Positions 1,273-4,333 of a DNA stretch of 64,000 nt are shown piece after piece. Below the pieces are notes generated by a model. It was not told the origin of the DNA and did no database searches. It worked only from the letters and a program-made list of their open reading frames with translations. The DNA comes from a virus. Lineage: Duplodnaviria > Caudoviricetes. The stretch covers positions 1-64,000 of IMG/VR virus record IMGVR_UViG_2595698595_000001; one strand, given 5' to 3'. Numbering within the stretch: the stretch's first letter is position 1; each line of letters opens with the position of its first letter. Position numbers and translations under genes: made by a program.

Positions 1273-1346
1273 TATCTTGTAGCTCAGCTGGTTAGAGCAA
1301 GTGACTGTTAATCACTAGGTCGATGGTTCGAATCCATCCAAGGTAG
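1273..1346 (+). tRNA. tRNA-Asn(GTT)
   Basis: Full cloverleaf; anticodon arm AGTGA-CTGTTAA-TCACT; T loop TTCGAAT; no encoded CCA. Confidence 0.95.
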
Positions 1347-1351
1347 CACAA

Positions 1352-1424
1352 AGGGATATAGCTCAGCTGGTAGAGCAATGGTCTCCAAAACCATCGGTCG
1401 GTAGTTCGAATCTATCTGTCCCTG
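1352..1424 (+). tRNA. tRNA-Trp(CCA)
   Basis: Cloverleaf; ATGGT-CTCCAAA-ACCAT; acceptor AGGGATA/TGTCCCT. Confidence 0.95.
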
Positions 1425-1430
1425 CAATAT

Positions 1431-1507
1431 GCACATATGGCTGAGTCAGGTCAAAAGCAACGGTCTGCAAAACCGTACAACCATTGGTTCGAATCCAATT
1501 ATGTGCT
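1431..1507 (+). tRNA. tRNA-Cys(GCA)
   Basis: Cloverleaf; ACGGT-CTGCAAA-ACCGT; U discriminator. Confidence 0.93.
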
Positions 1508-1517
1508 CAAATAACAA

Positions 1518-1591
1518 TGCGGGGTAGAGCAGATGGAGTGCTCGCGGGTCTCATAAGCCCGAGGTCATGGGTTCGAGTCCCATCCCTGCTA
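1518..1591 (+). tRNA. tRNA-Met(CAT), initiator-like
   Basis: CGGGT-CTCATAA-GCCCG; 1:72 T-T mismatch and GAGC/GCTC D stem as in fMet tRNAs. Confidence 0.88.
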
Positions 1592-1597
1592 CTAATA

Positions 1598-1671
1598 GCT
1601 CCTTTAGCTCAGTTGGTCAGAGCAACAGACTCATAATCTGAAGGTCATAGGTTCAAGTCCTGTAGGGAGCA
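1598..1671 (+). tRNA. tRNA with CAT anticodon (Ile2 or elongator Met)
   Basis: Cloverleaf; ACAGA-CTCATAA-TCTGA; acceptor GCTCCTT/AGGGAGC. Confidence 0.88.
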
Positions 1672-1681
1672 CTTTTAAAAA

Positions 1682-1753
1682 GCTCTTCTAGCTCAATTGG
1701 TAGAGTGATAGATTCATTATCTATTGGATATGGGTTCGAATCCCATGAGAGCG
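1682..1753 (+). tRNA. Atypical tRNA with CAT anticodon (possible pseudo-tRNA or decoy)
   Basis: D arm, ATAGA-TTCATTA-TCTAT arm and T arm intact; pyrimidine at position 37; acceptor 3' strand one base short. Confidence 0.65.
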
Positions 1754-1760
1754 CAAATAC

Positions 1761-1902
1761 GAAACTGTAGCTCAGTTGGTAGAGTAGTAGATATATCTAC
1801 ATTCGAAAATATCTTGATTATGTATGGTTCTAGAACATACTAGAGAGACGATAGAATTCGGGTCATACCCGGTGGTCATTGGTTCGAATCCAATCAGTTT
1901 CA
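1761..1902 (+). ncRNA. tRNA-like RNA with ~70-nt structured insertion
   Basis: Perfect acceptor GAAACTG/CAGTTTC, canonical D arm and T arm, two extra hairpins (1787-1857) and a CGGG-TCATA-CCCG arm. Confidence 0.8.
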
Positions 1903-1948: not shown

Positions 1949-1980
1949 AAACCCGAATTCGAAAGGATTCGGGTTTCTTT
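1949..1980 (+). terminator. Intrinsic terminator after tRNA cluster
   Basis: AAACCCGAATTC-GAAA-GGATTCGGGTTT followed by T-rich tract. Confidence 0.85.
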
Positions 1981-2026: not shown

Positions 2027-4333
2027 ATGATGATAGACCCTATCTTAGATAAGAAAATTGAAGAAACTTATCTAATGCATAATCACATTCTAAGAGCATG
2101 GGAAGAGGCTAAAGGTGAAACTGAATACGATCTTTATAAGGTTGCAATGTTCAAAGACCTTATAATTCTTACTAACCCTGCTGTTACATACGTAGAATCT
2201 CTAGCACAAATAGAAATATTCTTTCACCTGACAGCCATGCTAGAAGGCGGTTTGAAACCTGGACCTGATGTAACAGAAGATGCTACAGAATCCGAAAACG
2301 TAGATGTTTCTACTATCGACGGAATGGTTACAGATGACGGATTCCTTCAAATAGGAGAAGGTAACACAACCACTGATATATCTCTGACAACAAACAATGA
2401 GATAACATTAGGAATGGGTGTTCGTAAATACAGAAATAACGAAACTATTCCAGCTTCTAACGGTGTTTACAATTTACATTTAACTCCGGGTGAAAGATGG
2501 TCATTTGTTTACATGGCTAAACTTGAAGCGTTAGTTAATTCTGGTCTTACTGAGCTATATGATATTACTCTTCAAATCGAAAACGAAGGAAAAACTTTAG
2601 ATTTTGTATTCAAATCCATTAATACTGGAATCGTTCTAGTAAATGAAAAATATAATATAACCATTAGTGATGGATTTACTTCAGAGGACTTCAAAGTATT
2701 TCAGGATATACAAAGAGTTGAGTTCTATGGTAAAAAGTTCAATGACACAATGTCTAACGAAAATGGCGTACCTGTAGGAACATTCAAATTTACTTACAAA
2801 GCTGTAAGACGCTATCAGCATCCGGATTTCAATATCAATCCTGTAATTCTTGAAACTATCGCTAACGTTACATTTGATGAAGAACCTCCAAAAGAGGTTA
2901 GGGTTCATTTCATTGACACACCTTCAAAAATGCAAGTTAAACTAAATGGTAGTCCTGTTACAGAAAAGATCAATTTAGTAGGTGATGCTCCAATAGATGT
3001 TAACATAAAACTTGATTCAACAGATTACGGTGATAACCCAGTACAAGAAATAAAATCTGTTTCAGTAAAGAATAAAGATACTAATGAAGCTATTTCGTAT
3101 ACTGGTACTTTCGATGATCTGACAATAGCTCAAACTTCTATAGAAAATATCGAAGTAGGGTATGCAAAAAGTATAAAAACTGGAAATGTTAAAATAATCA
3201 AAGATGCTGGAGTATTACGTTCTTTATTGAATTCCAATAATTTCGATAATTATGAAATGACTAACGATTCAAACTATTCAGATACTTATGGTTCTGATGG
3301 TACTATAGCTATTACTACTAAAGATGGTTATAACATGAAATCTATCAAAGTAAATGACGTTGATGTAACAATTACTGATGTCGATTTCATGATAGTTCCA
3401 GTTAAATTCGTAAGTGACATTGTTACGGTCGTTACAGAATTAAATTCTGATTATCAAGTAATCATAACTTCGAATAATGAATCTGAATTAGTAACACCTG
3501 TTTCATATTACAATATATCAGATGATTGGTCGGAAGGTACTATGGAATTGAATACACCTAATTTATTTCCTGATACTACAGAACTTTCTGTAACCTTAGA
3601 ATTGAAAGATGATAGATCGTATATGTTTGGTTCTATAAAGTTAAATGACGTTGAGAAACTTACGGAACCTGAGACTTACTATACATTAGATTTCGCAATA
3701 GATAAATCAAACGTTAAGATCGAAACTTCTGTAGTCGATAATCCTAATAAAGGTAAGAATATAATATCGTTTAACTATAATGTGGGTAATATTCTAACTA
3801 AGATAGATGATGTTATAGTAACAGGGGCTAAATACTATGATCCTACTACTAATATCGTTTTAACAGTTTCTAATGTCATAAATGGTCAACCTGAAAGAGA
3901 AGTTAAGAAAATTAAAGTTATTTCTGGAACTGAAACAATAAGTGAACATGATCCAAACACTAACATTTCTTTGTTAATGGATAAAGATTATAGAATCGAA
4001 ACGGTTGAAGATTTCAAACAATATACGATAACACGTACTAACGATGATCCTAATGTTACTATAGACGTAAATGGATTCTATCCGATACCAAGTAATACTA
4101 CATTAGCACATAATGTACCTGTTTCGTTCAATGCTAATTCATCTGGAGGATTTACAGTAAAAGTTCCTATCGATACTCATATTGTTAAGTCTGTTACATT
4201 AAACGGAGTTCTTCAAACTATTGAAGAAAATGTACCAGTTGTTTCAATCCCTGCAAATACTTATACAGGAAATATAACTATCGAAGCTACTTCAGAATTA
4301 AAGCCTGAACCAGAACCTCCTGTCGAAGGATAA
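2027..4333 (+). CDS. Putative virion surface protein with multiple Ig-like beta-sandwich domains
   Basis: Acidic, T/N/V-rich repeated beta pattern (GYNMKSIKVND, IVKSVTLNG); late motif upstream. Confidence 0.6.
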   Translation: MMIDPILDKKIEETYLMHNHILRAWEEAKGETEYDLYKVAMFKDLIILTNPAVTYVESLAQIEIFFHLTAMLEGGLKPGPDVTEDATESENVDVSTIDGMVTDDGFLQIGEGNTTTDISLTTNNEITLGMGVRKYRNNETIPASNGVYNLHLTPGERWSFVYMAKLEALVNSGLTELYDITLQIENEGKTLDFVFKSINTGIVLVNEKYNITISDGFTSEDFKVFQDIQRVEFYGKKFNDTMSNENGVPVGTFKFTYKAVRRYQHPDFNINPVILETIANVTFDEEPPKEVRVHFIDTPSKMQVKLNGSPVTEKINLVGDAPIDVNIKLDSTDYGDNPVQEIKSVSVKNKDTNEAISYTGTFDDLTIAQTSIENIEVGYAKSIKTGNVKIIKDAGVLRSLLNSNNFDNYEMTNDSNYSDTYGSDGTIAITTKDGYNMKSIKVNDVDVTITDVDFMIVPVKFVSDIVTVVTELNSDYQVIITSNNESELVTPVSYYNISDDWSEGTMELNTPNLFPDTTELSVTLELKDDRSYMFGSIKLNDVEKLTEPETYYTLDFAIDKSNVKIETSVVDNPNKGKNIISFNYNVGNILTKIDDVIVTGAKYYDPTTNIVLTVSNVINGQPEREVKKIKVISGTETISEHDPNTNISLLMDKDYRIETVEDFKQYTITRTNDDPNVTIDVNGFYPIPSNTTLAHNVPVSFNANSSGGFTVKVPIDTHIVKSVTLNGVLQTIEENVPVVSIPANTYTGNITIEATSELKPEPEPPVEG

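What the first reader, a model, noticed from the sequence alone, without database searches (positions are those of the whole stretch)
1761..1902. 142-nt tRNA-like RNA with a two-hairpin insert between the D arm and a CAT-bearing arm
Seen: perfect 7-bp acceptor (GAAACTG/CAGTTTC, A discriminator), canonical D arm (GCTC-AGTTGGTA-GAGT) and T arm (ATTGG-TTCGAAT-CCAAT). After position 26 come a palindromic hairpin GTAGATATATCTAC (1787-1800), a long imperfect hairpin (ATTC..TATC..GTATG..CATAC..GATA..GAAT, 1801-1857), and then TCGGG-TCATA-CCCGG with initiator-like GGG/CCC pairs before a normal TGGTC variable loop. The insert is far too short for a group I intron, is not at the usual 37/38 intron site, and the RNA lacks the G3:U70 pair and tag ORF of tmRNA. 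Inference: an undescribed tRNA-scaffolded ncRNA (decoy or aptamer carrier matured by host tRNA enzymes) or a non-canonically spliced tRNA.
Basis: partly seen in the sequence, partly recalled or inferred. Interest (0 to 1): 0.82.

Follow-up and report, generated by a model that had tools for sequence, protein, structure and literature searches.

The report
Interrupted tRNA look-alike in jumbo phage
The last gene of a giant phage's small tRNA cluster has a perfect tRNA frame, but about 70 extra bases sit where the anticodon arm should join, so it is either a tRNA with an unexplained intron or a tRNA-shaped RNA that cannot read codons.

Summary
The element at 1761-1902 is real. Rfam calls it tRNA (45 bits, E 2.4e-6). 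It is the seventh and last unit of a tight tRNA operon in a 219-kb standard-code phage, and a terminator follows at 1949-1976.

Acceptor, D and T arms are perfect. Between position 26 and the variable loop lie a 14-nt palindromic hairpin, 57 AT-rich bases and a CAT hairpin with a 5-nt loop. The 'long hairpin' in those 57 bases folds no better than shuffles.

Removing 70-71 nt in silico gives a tRNA(CAT) that ARAGORN scores like its neighbours. Its anticodon loop would still be aberrant: 5 nt, or 7 nt with G32/C38, seen in 6 of 983 tRNAs.

The insert is not a group I intron, a BHB intron or tmRNA. The phage has no EndA, RtcB or Rnl2. No homologue and no RNA data were found.

My reading is a non-decoding tRNA-shaped RNA, possibly built by recombination with the neighbouring CAT tRNA (0.45). 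A spliced 'enigmatic intron' tRNA, as reported for Lak megaphages, remains a serious rival (0.3).

In passing, I found two conserved, covarying families of ~45-nt inserts. They split many phage and Bacteroidota or Lachnospiraceae tRNA genes, mostly after position 28. This element belongs to neither family.

The parts
1273..1754 (+). Six ordinary tRNA genes: Asn-GTT, Trp-CCA, Cys-GCA and three with CAT. They are spaced 4-9 nt apart. This is context; the element is the seventh unit of the array.
   Evidence: ARAGORN; Rfam 53-70 bits. They are the only tRNAs in the 219-kb genome.
1761..1786 (+). 5' part of the tRNA frame: acceptor 5' strand GAAACTG, TA, D arm GCTC-AGTTGGTA-GAGT, and A at position 26.
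   Evidence: Sequence; Rfam alignment. The D arm matches that of the neighbouring CAT tRNA at 1689-1706 in 17 of 18 positions.
1787..1800 (+). Palindromic hairpin GTAGA-TATA-TCTAC. It sits where an anticodon arm normally follows the D arm, but its loop is only 4 nt.
   Evidence: z -3.1, 7/200 shuffles. Rfam and my own tRNA model align it as the anticodon arm with a 3-nt deletion. It resembles the anticodon arm ATAGA-TTCATTA-TCTAT of the tRNA at 1681-1754.
1801..1857 (+). 57-nt AT-rich filler. It contains ATTCGAA (1801-1807, complementary to the T loop), a T-arm-like GTATG-GTTCTAGAA-CATAC (1822-1840), and GAGAGACGATAGAA (1844-1856; the score-38 alignment runs from 1787 to 1856). That last piece resembles the 3' acceptor strand, spacer and first bases that follow the neighbouring tRNA.
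   Evidence: Not more stable than shuffles (z -0.10). No second copy in the genome. It aligns collinearly with 1700-1763, but only at p 0.05-0.15.
1858..1872 (+). Anticodon-arm look-alike TCGGG-TCATA-CCCGG. It carries CAT in a 5-nt loop; read as a 7-nt loop it is GTCATAC with G32/C38.
   Evidence: z -2.1, 3/200 shuffles. My tRNA model aligns it as the anticodon arm with a 2-nt deletion in the loop. G32 with C38 occurs in 6 of 983 ARAGORN tRNAs from the fetched loci.
1873..1902 (+). Variable loop TGGTC, T arm ATTGG-TTCGAAT-CCAAT, acceptor 3' strand CAGTTTC, discriminator A. No CCA is encoded.
   Evidence: Sequence; Rfam alignment. 1877-1894 is 18/18 identical to 1482-1499, the T arm of tRNA-Cys.
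1949..1976 (+). Intrinsic-terminator-like hairpin (12 pairs) followed by a T-rich tail. It closes the tRNA operon 47 nt after the element.
   Evidence: 2 terminator-like sites found in 1000-2200 against 0.5 +/- 0.6 in shuffles.

Best explanation
The element is a tRNA(CAT)-derived gene and the last cistron of the phage's seven-unit tRNA operon. Its 'top half' (acceptor stem, T arm, D arm) is intact, but its anticodon region has been replaced by three directly abutting pieces. These are an anticodon-arm look-alike with a 4-nt loop, 57 nt of unstructured AT-rich filler, and a second anticodon-arm look-alike bearing CAT in a 5-nt loop.

Inferred working:
- It is co-transcribed with the six tRNAs up to the terminator at 1949-1976.
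- The intact frame lets host RNase P cut before G1761. 3' processing and the CCA-adding enzyme finish the end after A1902.
- The result is a roughly 145-nt tRNA-shaped RNA. It cannot present a normal 7-nt anticodon loop and so does not decode.

The filler most likely arose by unequal recombination between the nearly identical D arms of this gene and the CAT tRNA just upstream, followed by deletions.

Whether the product is now a stable tRNA mimic is open. A mimic would be comparable in position and size to T4 RNAC/RNAD, and could for instance occupy a tRNA-binding enzyme or nuclease. The alternative is a tolerated relic. I split those two about evenly.

Shown: the anatomy, the operon position, the absence of known intron signatures, and the aberrant loops.

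Inferred: transcription, end processing, non-decoding, and the recombination origin.
For: (1) The frame is intact and in operon context.
- Rfam scores it 45 bits.
- It lies 6 nt after the previous tRNA, with a terminator 47 nt downstream.

(2) There is no normal anticodon arm.
- Both candidate arms have loops of 4 and 5 nt.
- Even the best in-silico excision leaves G27:U43 and U28:G42 wobbles, a 4-nt variable loop and G32/C38. That 32/38 combination occurs in 6 of 983 tRNAs.

(3) No splicing route was detected.
- The insert is 71 nt and has no Rfam intron or ribozyme hit at E<=10.
- At the four candidate junctions the BHB central helix forms only 0-2 of 4 pairs.
- The 219-kb genome has no PF01974 (EndA), PF01139 (RtcB) or PF09414 (RNA ligase) hit at E<=1.
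- Covariance models of the two conserved insert families I found give no hit on 1761-1902 at E<=10 with filters off.

(4) The filler is not selected-looking structure: z -0.10 for 1801-1857 and -0.69 for the whole insert.

(5) Three ordinary CAT tRNAs already stand upstream, one of them with a 1:72 mismatch as in initiators. A fourth decoder is therefore not obviously needed.

(6) Hints of a recombination origin.
- A tRNA model built from the neighbours splits the element into two partial tRNAs, 1761-1832 (14 bits) and 1845-1903 (29.5 bits).
- The best alignment of the insert against the upstream cluster always falls on 1700-1763, the 3' part of the neighbouring CAT tRNA plus spacer.
- nhmmer with that tRNA as query reaches through the first hairpin (1767-1799, E 0.62).

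(7) There is a precedent for unexplained stable RNAs closing a phage tRNA operon. T4 rnaC (139 nt) and rnaD (119 nt) are annotated there. rnaC shows a weak tRNA-like 3' domain. Their roles are stated as unknown in PMC3014915 and PMC9697503 (passages).
Against: - Removing 71 nt after position 26, or 70 nt after position 27, yields a tRNA-Met(cat) that ARAGORN still calls at 116% of its default thresholds. The six neighbours reach 112-120%. The exons therefore look like a maintained tRNA.
- The insertion point (after position 26-28, insert starting TA) is the same hot spot as in many other phage tRNA genes whose split anticodon stems are perfectly complementary. That argues those tRNAs are matured.
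- The recombination-origin statistics are weak. The p-values are 0.0135 (mononucleotide shuffles) and 0.048 (dinucleotide shuffles) against the single pre-chosen segment. They are 0.07-0.15 when the whole cluster is searched. nhmmer with the insert as query hits nothing in the cluster.
- If the filler is an old decayed duplicate, the perfect frame implies selection, which does not fit a pure relic.
- G32/C38 loops are rare but do exist.
- Host enzymes (for example a host RtcB) were not examined, because the host is unknown.
- No expression data were available.
Confidence: 0.45

Rival explanations
1. It is an intron-containing tRNA(CAT) gene (Met or Ile2 type). The 70-71 nt at 1787/1788-1857 would be an intervening sequence of the 'enigmatic' kind seen in tRNA genes of large phages. 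It would be removed by an unknown host or phage activity to give a 72-nt decoder.
For: - In-silico excision restores a tRNA that ARAGORN scores like the neighbours: 116% against 112-120%. The unspliced gene only gives a poor Ser call at 82%.
- All four frame stems are perfect.
- The site, after position 26-28 with the insert starting TA, is the commonest site among other insert-bearing phage tRNA genes. Among 43 unique viral candidates, 17 restore a canonical arm after excision: 13 at positions 26-29 and 4 in the loop. That count includes 2 false cases with a second tRNA piece inside.
- Lak megaphages of Prevotella (Bacteroidota) carry 1-4 such tRNA introns per genome (PMC6784885, passages).
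- This phage's nearest detectable relatives are Tenacibaculum (Bacteroidota) jumbo phages.
Against: - No group I features, no BHB, and no EndA, RtcB or Rnl2 in the phage.
- The insert has neither the conserved motifs nor any significant structure that a dedicated machinery could recognise.
- The spliced loop would be 5 nt, or G32/C38 with a 4-nt variable loop.
- Three CAT tRNAs are already present.
- No insert-less or insert-bearing homologue was found that would define the boundaries.
Confidence: 0.3
2. It is a purely non-functional scar: a tRNA gene recently disrupted by inserted DNA (local duplication or foreign), still looking intact because too little time has passed.
For: - It is a singleton with no homologue anywhere I searched.
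- The insert has genome-like AT-rich composition and no significant fold.
- Both arm-like hairpins have shrunken loops.
- It is redundant with three CAT tRNAs.
- It shows collinear but weak similarity to the adjacent tRNA plus spacer.
Against: - If the insert came from a local duplication it is now highly diverged, with no nhmmer hit. Yet the 42 paired bases of the frame are all intact. That pattern needs selection on the frame.
- If the insert is foreign and recent, its source should be findable, and none was.
- Phage genomes usually purge useless DNA (general knowledge, not tested).
Confidence: 0.2
3. It is an assembly or chimera artefact that joins two tRNA genes.
For: The tRNA model splits it into two partial tRNAs. 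tRNA arrays are repeat-rich.
Against: - The outer strands pair 7/7 although they would come from different genes.
- The record is one 219,372-bp contig rated 100% complete.
- The interior has no second copy that could have caused a mis-join.
- Reads could not be inspected.
Confidence: 0.05

Closest known systems
'Enigmatic' introns in tRNA genes of Lak megaphages (Devoto et al. 2019, PMC6784885; abstract and passages read)
   Same: Both are over-long tRNA genes in a very large phage of a (probable) Bacteroidota host. The insert fits no known intron class and was not classified by Rfam. The exons rebuild a tRNA when the insert is taken out.
   Different: Lak introns are conserved, often identical, across related phages, and their boundaries were fixed with insert-less alleles. 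Here no relative is available. Their sequences are in Supplementary Table 6, which I could not open, so no direct comparison was made. Here the exon-derived anticodon loop is aberrant.
Phage T4 small stable RNAs RNAC (species 1, 139 nt) and RNAD (species 2, 119 nt)
   Same: Both are the last genes of a phage tRNA operon and have a similar size. RNAC has an acceptor-like stem plus a canonical T arm but a degenerate middle (tRNA-Sec model 17.5 bits). Their function is unknown (PMC3014915, PMC9697503, passages).
   Different: No sequence similarity was seen; T4 did not appear among the blastn hits. In RNAC the tRNA-like part is only the 3' two-thirds, with a 5' extension. Here the two ends of the RNA form the acceptor stem and the D arm is canonical.
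Archaeal tRNA introns at non-canonical positions (bulge-helix-bulge introns; review PMC4090602, listing and abstract only)
   Same: Short protein-spliced inserts can sit in the anticodon stem or at the D/anticodon junction, not only at 37/38.
   Different: No BHB can be drawn at the junctions. There is no splicing endonuclease gene in the phage. The setting is bacterial-type, with a sigma-70-like ORF next door.
Two conserved tRNA-insert families defined here: class 1 'hairpin + CAGCAA' and class 2 'P1/P2 hairpin + TTACTTC tail'
   Same: Both have the same host structure (tRNA genes in phages and in Bacteroidota or Firmicutes contigs). Both have the same preferred site, in the 5' strand of the anticodon stem, with the insert often starting TA.
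   Different: The element matches neither covariance model and none of about 100 other inserts above the shuffle level. Its insert is longer (70-71 nt against about 45-60 nt) and lacks covariation evidence.
tmRNA and bacterial Y-RNA-like YrlA (tRNA-like domains fused to another module)
   Same: A tRNA frame carries a foreign module in place of the anticodon arm.
   Different: There is no tmRNA call, and position 3:70 is A:U rather than G:U. YrlA scores 24 bits against a gathering score of 69, and that match covers the previous tRNA's T arm plus this D arm, not the insert.

Membership tests
Canonical tRNA (Rfam RF00005) | 7-bp acceptor stem, D arm, and T arm with a TTCRA loop; score above the gathering threshold | tested here: met
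   45 bits against a gathering score of 29, spanning 1761-1902. All three arms are perfect.
Canonical tRNA (Rfam RF00005) | One 5-bp anticodon stem with a 7-nt loop (U33, purine 37) directly after position 26 | tested here: not met
   The arm after position 26 has a 4-nt loop, and the CAT arm has a 5-nt loop and lies 71 nt further on. ARAGORN without intron search does not call the gene.
Group I intron in a bacterial or phage tRNA gene | Catalytic core of about 200 nt or more (P3-P9), recognised by Rfam Intron_gpI; usually located in the anticodon loop | tested here: not met
   The insert is 70-71 nt. The Rfam scan of 1700-1990 at E<=10 lists no intron or ribozyme family. The site is at the D/anticodon-stem junction.
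Bulge-helix-bulge (archaeal/eukaryal-type) tRNA intron | Two 3-nt bulges separated by a 4-bp helix at the two splice sites | tested here: not met
   For the four junction models (after 26, 27 or 28), 0-2 of 4 central pairs form. The 8 of 500 scanned combinations with 4/4 central pairs lack flanking helices, and none gives the tRNA.
Bulge-helix-bulge (archaeal/eukaryal-type) tRNA intron | A splicing endonuclease (PF01974) and a ligase (RtcB PF01139 or Rnl PF09414) are available | tested here: inconclusive
   None is encoded in the 219-kb phage at E<=1. The host genome is unknown, and the control genome of Bacteroides thetaiotaomicron does score for RtcB.
tmRNA | tRNA-Ala-like acceptor with G3:U70, a tag reading frame, and pseudoknots | tested here: not met
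   ARAGORN tmRNA search is negative. Position 3:70 is A:U. Rfam does not list tmRNA here.
Lak-type 'enigmatic' phage tRNA intron (PMC6784885) | An over-long tRNA gene in a large phage whose exons rebuild a tRNA when the insert is removed | tested here: met
   After in-silico removal of 70-71 nt, ARAGORN calls tRNA-Met(cat) up to 116% of its thresholds; the neighbours reach 112-120%.
Lak-type 'enigmatic' phage tRNA intron (PMC6784885) | The insert is conserved in related phages, and insert-less alleles define the boundaries | not testable with these tools
   No relative of this phage or of the element was retrievable.
   cmsearch of the whole window with filters off at E<=10 gives 11 weak hits, none in 1761-1902.
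   cmsearch of the whole window with filters off at E<=10 gives 15 weak hits, none in 1761-1902.
T4 RNAC/RNAD-type stable RNA | A non-tRNA stable RNA of about 120-140 nt encoded at the 3' end of a phage tRNA operon | tested here: inconclusive
   Position and size agree. Stability and expression here are unknown. No sequence similarity was detected.
YrlA / Y-RNA-like | Ro-binding stem plus a tRNA-like module; Rfam RF02553 at or above 69 bits | tested here: not met
   24 bits, E 0.0047 on a 291-nt search, covering 1708-1815, which is tRNA parts only.

The most novel reading that the evidence does not exclude
The 142-nt RNA is a purpose-kept, anticodon-less mimic of a Met/initiator-type tRNA. It would keep the enzyme-facing top half and a CAT-bearing stem with three G:C pairs, but have loops too small to be cut or decoded. 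The phage would make it to soak up or blind a host tRNA-targeting defence nuclease or tRNA-modifying enzyme.

Alternatively, it is the first example of a third, motif-less kind of bacterial-world tRNA intron, removed by machinery that measures from the tRNA body.
Probability: 0.2. Interest if true: 0.8.

Novelty: new variant of a known kind. Interest (0 to 1): 0.45.

Why it matters
Bacteria and their phages are textbook cases of tRNA genes without protein-spliced introns. Even so, over-long tRNA genes keep turning up in large phages and nobody knows how, or whether, they are matured.

This element adds a clean, well-delimited case in a phage with only six other tRNAs. It makes the question directly testable with a single northern blot or tRNA-seq experiment.

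- If it is spliced, an unknown RNA-processing activity exists in a Bacteroidota-type host or phage.
- If it is not spliced, phages make tRNA-shaped RNAs for something other than decoding. That would also bear on the 50-year-old puzzle of T4 RNAC/RNAD.

The two conserved insert families seen in passing may matter more than this singleton. They have strong covariation, occur in arrays, are absent from Rfam, and were not found in my literature searches.

Tried and rejected
**Alternative readings of the element**
- ARAGORN's intron reading is rejected. It calls tRNA-Ser(aga) with a 47-nt intron at 32/33. The anticodon stem has mismatches, and the call survives only to 82% of the thresholds.
- The amber-suppressor reading is rejected. 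It would use CTA in the loop GTTCTAGAA on the long arm. The genome is read well with the standard code: ORFs of at least 100 aa cover 92%, with no block that opens under TAG or TGA reassignment. The arm is far too long, and the hairpin is at chance level.

**Searches for homologues of the element (all negative)**
- blastn (distant mode) against 50,697 phage records gave only generic tRNA-arm hits.
- A pattern for the 5-nt-loop arm plus T arm found 0 in viral contigs. A relaxed version found 0 in metagenome contigs.
- A pattern for the 5' frame found 0 in viral contigs and 1 in metagenome contigs. That hit is an ordinary tRNA-Lys(TTT) with the same acceptor stem.

**Searches for relatives of the phage**
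- The two neighbouring proteins and the large terminase found no locus in viral contigs.
- The downstream 768-aa ORF is an orphan among 5.8 billion proteins.
- The nearest relatives by a 951-aa protein are Tenacibaculum phages at about 25% identity. Of three records searched, pT24 has 4 normal-length tRNAs and the other two have none.

**RNA evidence**
- No RNA holder, and no run of any kind, was listed for 1200-2400.

**Comparisons of the insert**
- No second copy of the insert exists in the genome.
- It has no similarity to about 100 other tRNA inserts above the shuffle level (best score 20; null maxima 18-30).
- It shows no BHB and does not belong to class 1 or class 2.

**Duplication-scar statistics**
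- These were tried in four ways and stay borderline.

**Literature**
- Ten full-text searches were run.
- Only the Lak megaphage paper describes comparable inserts.
- None describes the two insert families or a phage tRNA-like decoy.
- Subscription journals and supplements were not searchable.
Full report
**What is there**

The window is the first 64 kb of a 219,372-bp virus record rated complete. It has 31% G+C and is read with the standard code: ORFs of at least 100 aa cover 92% of the genome, and no region opens up under TAG or TGA reassignment.

Its only tRNA genes form one tight array at 1273-1754: Asn-GTT, Trp-CCA, Cys-GCA and three with CAT, with gaps of 4-9 nt. The element starts 6 nt after the last of them. 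A 12-pair terminator-like hairpin with a T tail follows it at 1949-1976. It is therefore the seventh and last unit of the operon.

Rfam's tRNA model matches exactly 1761-1902 with 45 bits (gathering score 29, E 2.4e-6 for the window). The six neighbours score 53-70 bits.

- a 7/7 acceptor stem, with A73 as discriminator;
- D arm GCTC-AGTTGGTA-GAGT;
- T arm ATTGG-TTCGAAT-CCAAT;
- the palindrome at 1787-1800;
- the CAT hairpin at 1858-1872;
- TGGTC at 1873-1877.

**How much of the middle is structure**

The two short hairpins beat shuffles. 1787-1800 has z -3.1 (7 of 200 shuffles as good), and 1858-1872 has z -2.1 (3 of 200).

The 'long imperfect hairpin' at 1801-1857 does not (z -0.10, 85 of 200). 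Neither does the 71-nt insert as a whole (z -0.69, 44 of 200). The full 142 nt has z -1.61. The picture of a two-hairpin structured module is therefore not supported. What lies between the two short hairpins looks like AT-rich filler.

Placement is ambiguous. Rfam and my own tRNA model (R3, built from the six neighbours plus two other phage tRNAs) treat 1787-1800 as the anticodon arm with a 3-nt loop deletion. Either way the loop is 4 or 5 nt.

**Is it an interrupted tRNA?**

An exhaustive in-silico excision places the best cut after position 27 or 28 (70 nt). It gives stem GTCGG/CCGGT, loop GTCATAC and a 4-nt variable loop.

With 71 nt removed after position 26, or 70 nt after position 27, ARAGORN calls tRNA-Met(cat) up to 116% of its default thresholds. 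That is within the 112-120% range of the six neighbours. The unspliced gene gives only a poor Ser call at 82%. The exons therefore look like a maintained tRNA.

Against a working decoder, the loop is either 5 nt or carries G32 and C38. G32 occurs in 13, and G32 with C38 in 6, of 983 unique ARAGORN tRNAs from the fetched loci. Three ordinary CAT tRNAs also already stand upstream. One of them has a 1:72 mismatch, which I recall as an initiator hallmark.

**Known intron and tRNA-like classes, tested**

- **Group I:** the insert is 70-71 nt, and an Rfam scan of 1700-1990 at E<=10 lists no intron or ribozyme.
- **BHB:** at the four junction models only 0-2 of the 4 central pairs form.
- **Splicing enzymes:** the phage has no PF01974, PF01139 or PF09414 hit at E<=1. 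Host enzymes could not be examined.
- **tmRNA:** there is no ARAGORN call, and position 3:70 is A:U.
- **YrlA:** it scores 24 bits against a gathering score of 69, and the match lies on tRNA parts only.

**Homologues**

None was found.
- blastn against phage records gives only generic tRNA-arm matches.
- Patterns for the unusual arm plus T arm find nothing in viral or metagenome contigs.
- The 5' frame finds only an ordinary tRNA-Lys(TTT) with the same acceptor stem in one metagenome contig.
- The neighbouring proteins and the terminase retrieve no related locus.
- The downstream ORF is an orphan.
- The nearest relatives are Tenacibaculum jumbo phages at about 25% identity in one 951-aa protein. 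Of the three records searched, one has four normal tRNAs and two have none.
- No sequencing run was listed.

Covariation and expression, the two decisive kinds of evidence, are therefore missing.

**Where the filler may come from**

The D arm matches that of the CAT tRNA just upstream in 17 of 18 positions. The first hairpin resembles that tRNA's anticodon arm minus three loop bases. nhmmer with that tRNA as query extends through the hairpin (1767-1799, E 0.62).

Model R3 splits the element into two partial tRNAs:
- 1761-1832 (14 bits);
- 1845-1903 (29.5 bits), in which GAGACGA-TA is read as a decayed acceptor 5' strand directly followed by the CAT arm, with the D arm missing.

The best alignment of the insert with the upstream cluster always falls on 1700-1763, the 3' part of the neighbouring tRNA plus the spacer and the first bases of the next gene. 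It is collinear over the whole insert.

Significance is weak:
- p 0.0135 (mononucleotide shuffles);
- p 0.048 (dinucleotide shuffles, best of six junction segments);
- p 0.07-0.15 when the whole cluster is the target;
- nhmmer with the insert as query finds nothing in the cluster.

Unequal recombination between the two D arms, followed by deletions, is therefore a reasonable but unproven origin.

If it is true and old, the perfect frame (42 paired bases, and a T arm 18/18 identical to that of tRNA-Cys) implies selection on the tRNA shape rather than on decoding.

**The wider phenomenon**

A generic pattern (one common D arm, 70-100 nt, one common T loop) found 88 stretches in viral contigs.

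Of the viral matches, 52 (43 unique) have at least 6 of 7 acceptor pairs across the ends. Of 122 genome matches, 58 do.

By a rough motif classification:
- The 43 viral candidates split into 16 class 1, 6 class 2, 2 with a second tRNA piece inside (false positives) and 19 others, including this element.
- The 56 usable genome candidates split into 25 with a second tRNA piece (adjacent or partially duplicated tRNAs), 16 class 2, 4 class 1 and 11 others.

Where excision restores a canonical arm, class 1 sits at positions 26-29 in 10 of 10 cases and class 2 in 8 of 11. The two halves of the split stem covary, for example CG+AGC with GCTCG and GG+ACA with TGTCC.

Class 2 has an 8-bp and a 4-bp helix, a conserved internal loop and a TTACTYC tail (21 sequences).
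- 82.9% of cells are paired, against 65.0% in shuffles (0 of 500 shuffles reach this).
- The covariation score is 0.554 against 0.247 (0 of 500).
- Slid controls pair at most 54%.

Its model finds further, untrained copies 110-160 nt apart in several loci. Six of these lie inside Rfam-called tRNAs of 119-155 nt.

Rfam has no family for either insert. This element matches neither model and none of the other inserts.

**Literature**

The Lak megaphage paper reports 1-4 'enigmatic' tRNA introns per genome in phages of Prevotella. It says such introns had not been reported in phage tRNAs (PMC6784885 and its preprint, passages). Its intron sequences are in a supplement I could not open.

T4 RNAC and RNAD, at the end of the T4 tRNA operon, are said to be of unknown role (PMC3014915 and PMC9697503, passages).

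My ten searches found no description of the insert families or of a phage tRNA-like decoy.

Earlier notes of this scan list similar cases on other DNA: a hairpin-interrupted tRNA-Phe in a crAss-like phage, an anticodon-less tRNA look-alike in a jumbo phage, and a giant-virus tRNA-Met with a 75-nt module. I used them as leads only.

**Verdict**

I rate a non-decoding tRNA-shaped RNA as most likely (0.45). It would be end-matured through its intact frame and possibly born of local recombination.

The rivals are a spliced 'enigmatic intron' tRNA (0.3), a pure relic (0.2) and an assembly artefact (0.05).

It is a new variant of a poorly understood but already noticed kind. One RNA experiment would settle it.

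Noticed in passing
L126:613-710, L144:3446-3547, L145:1370-1487, L177:2253-2498, L192:3660-4403, L097:2294-2896, L167:2033-2591, L018:8306-8435, L034:4101-4223, L077:4744-4870: Class 2 is a conserved insert of about 45-60 nt in tRNA genes of Bacteroidota contigs and of phages. The Bacteroidota contigs include the isolates Chitinophaga rupis DSM 21039 and Emticicia aquatilis.
- It has an 8-bp P1 and a 4-bp P2 around a conserved internal loop, followed by an invariant TTACTYC tail.
- Covariation is strong: 82.9% of cells paired against 65% in shuffles (0/500).
- It often occurs in arrays of several insert-bearing tRNA genes 110-160 nt apart.
- Rfam has no family for it, and my searches found no paper.
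   Followed up: partly
L029:957-1077, L037:905-1026, L041:14658-14774, L061:5763-5883, L040, L008/L011/L014/L026 (gut phage contigs), L101, L109:1983-2494, L113, L199: Class 1 is a second insert family (about 43-62 nt): an A-rich leader, a covarying hairpin and then CAGCAA.
- It is inserted after position 28 or 29 of tRNA genes (Lys-TTT, Val-TAC, Asn-GTT and others) in phage contigs and Lachnospiraceae MAGs.
- The two halves of the split anticodon stem covary.
- L109 carries four over-long tRNAs in a row.
   Followed up: partly
L008:2058-2177, L014:1083-1202 versus L026:5257-5374: Related gut-phage tRNA genes with the class 1 insert differ in the exon loop. L026 rebuilds a 7-nt loop with anticodon TAC. 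L008 and L014 would have a 9-nt loop between the same stem halves (read by eye).
   Followed up: no
L066:877-1020: A tRNA(TGG) gene has a 71-nt insert in the anticodon loop that itself looks like a small tRNA. This recalls the Lak phage intron said to encode a possible tRNA.
   Followed up: no
L028, L033, L083, L110 and L137, L141, L152, L160, L190: At least two further recurrent insert motifs appear in over-long tRNA genes: 'GGTGAAGGACCGAAA...GGTAAAGCA' and 'CCTTGTCGC...CGAATGCC...GGAAC'. Neither has been analysed.
   Followed up: no
window 1681-1754: The third CAT tRNA has the anticodon loop TTCATTA, with a pyrimidine (T) at position 37. T37 occurs in only 18 of 983 tRNAs from the fetched loci. 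It also shares the unusual G10:U25 D stem with the element.
   Followed up: partly
window 1845-1902: There is an inner alternative: GAGAC (1845-1849) can pair with GTTTC (1897-1901). This would give a 58-nt D-arm-less mini-tRNA shape (29.5 bits with my tRNA model). Whether RNase P could use it is unknown.
   Followed up: no
window 1801-1807 and 1883-1889: ATTCGAA in the insert is perfectly complementary to the T loop TTCGAAT. The minimum-free-energy fold uses this pairing and breaks the T arm. By my rough estimate the chance of such a 7-mer in 71 AT-rich bases is about 0.008, but this was noticed post hoc.
   Followed up: no
window 2027-4333 and 94-1182: The 768-aa ORF just downstream has no Pfam hit and no relative among 5.8 billion proteins. 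The 362-aa ORF upstream has a sub-threshold sigma-70 region 2 match (22.4 bits against a cut-off of 24).
   Followed up: partly
L077:2851-3249; L018, L022, L034, L077: Phage contigs that carry insert-bearing tRNAs also carry a GOLLD RNA (315.7 bits) and phage tmRNAs (66-98 bits) near their tRNA arrays.
   Followed up: no
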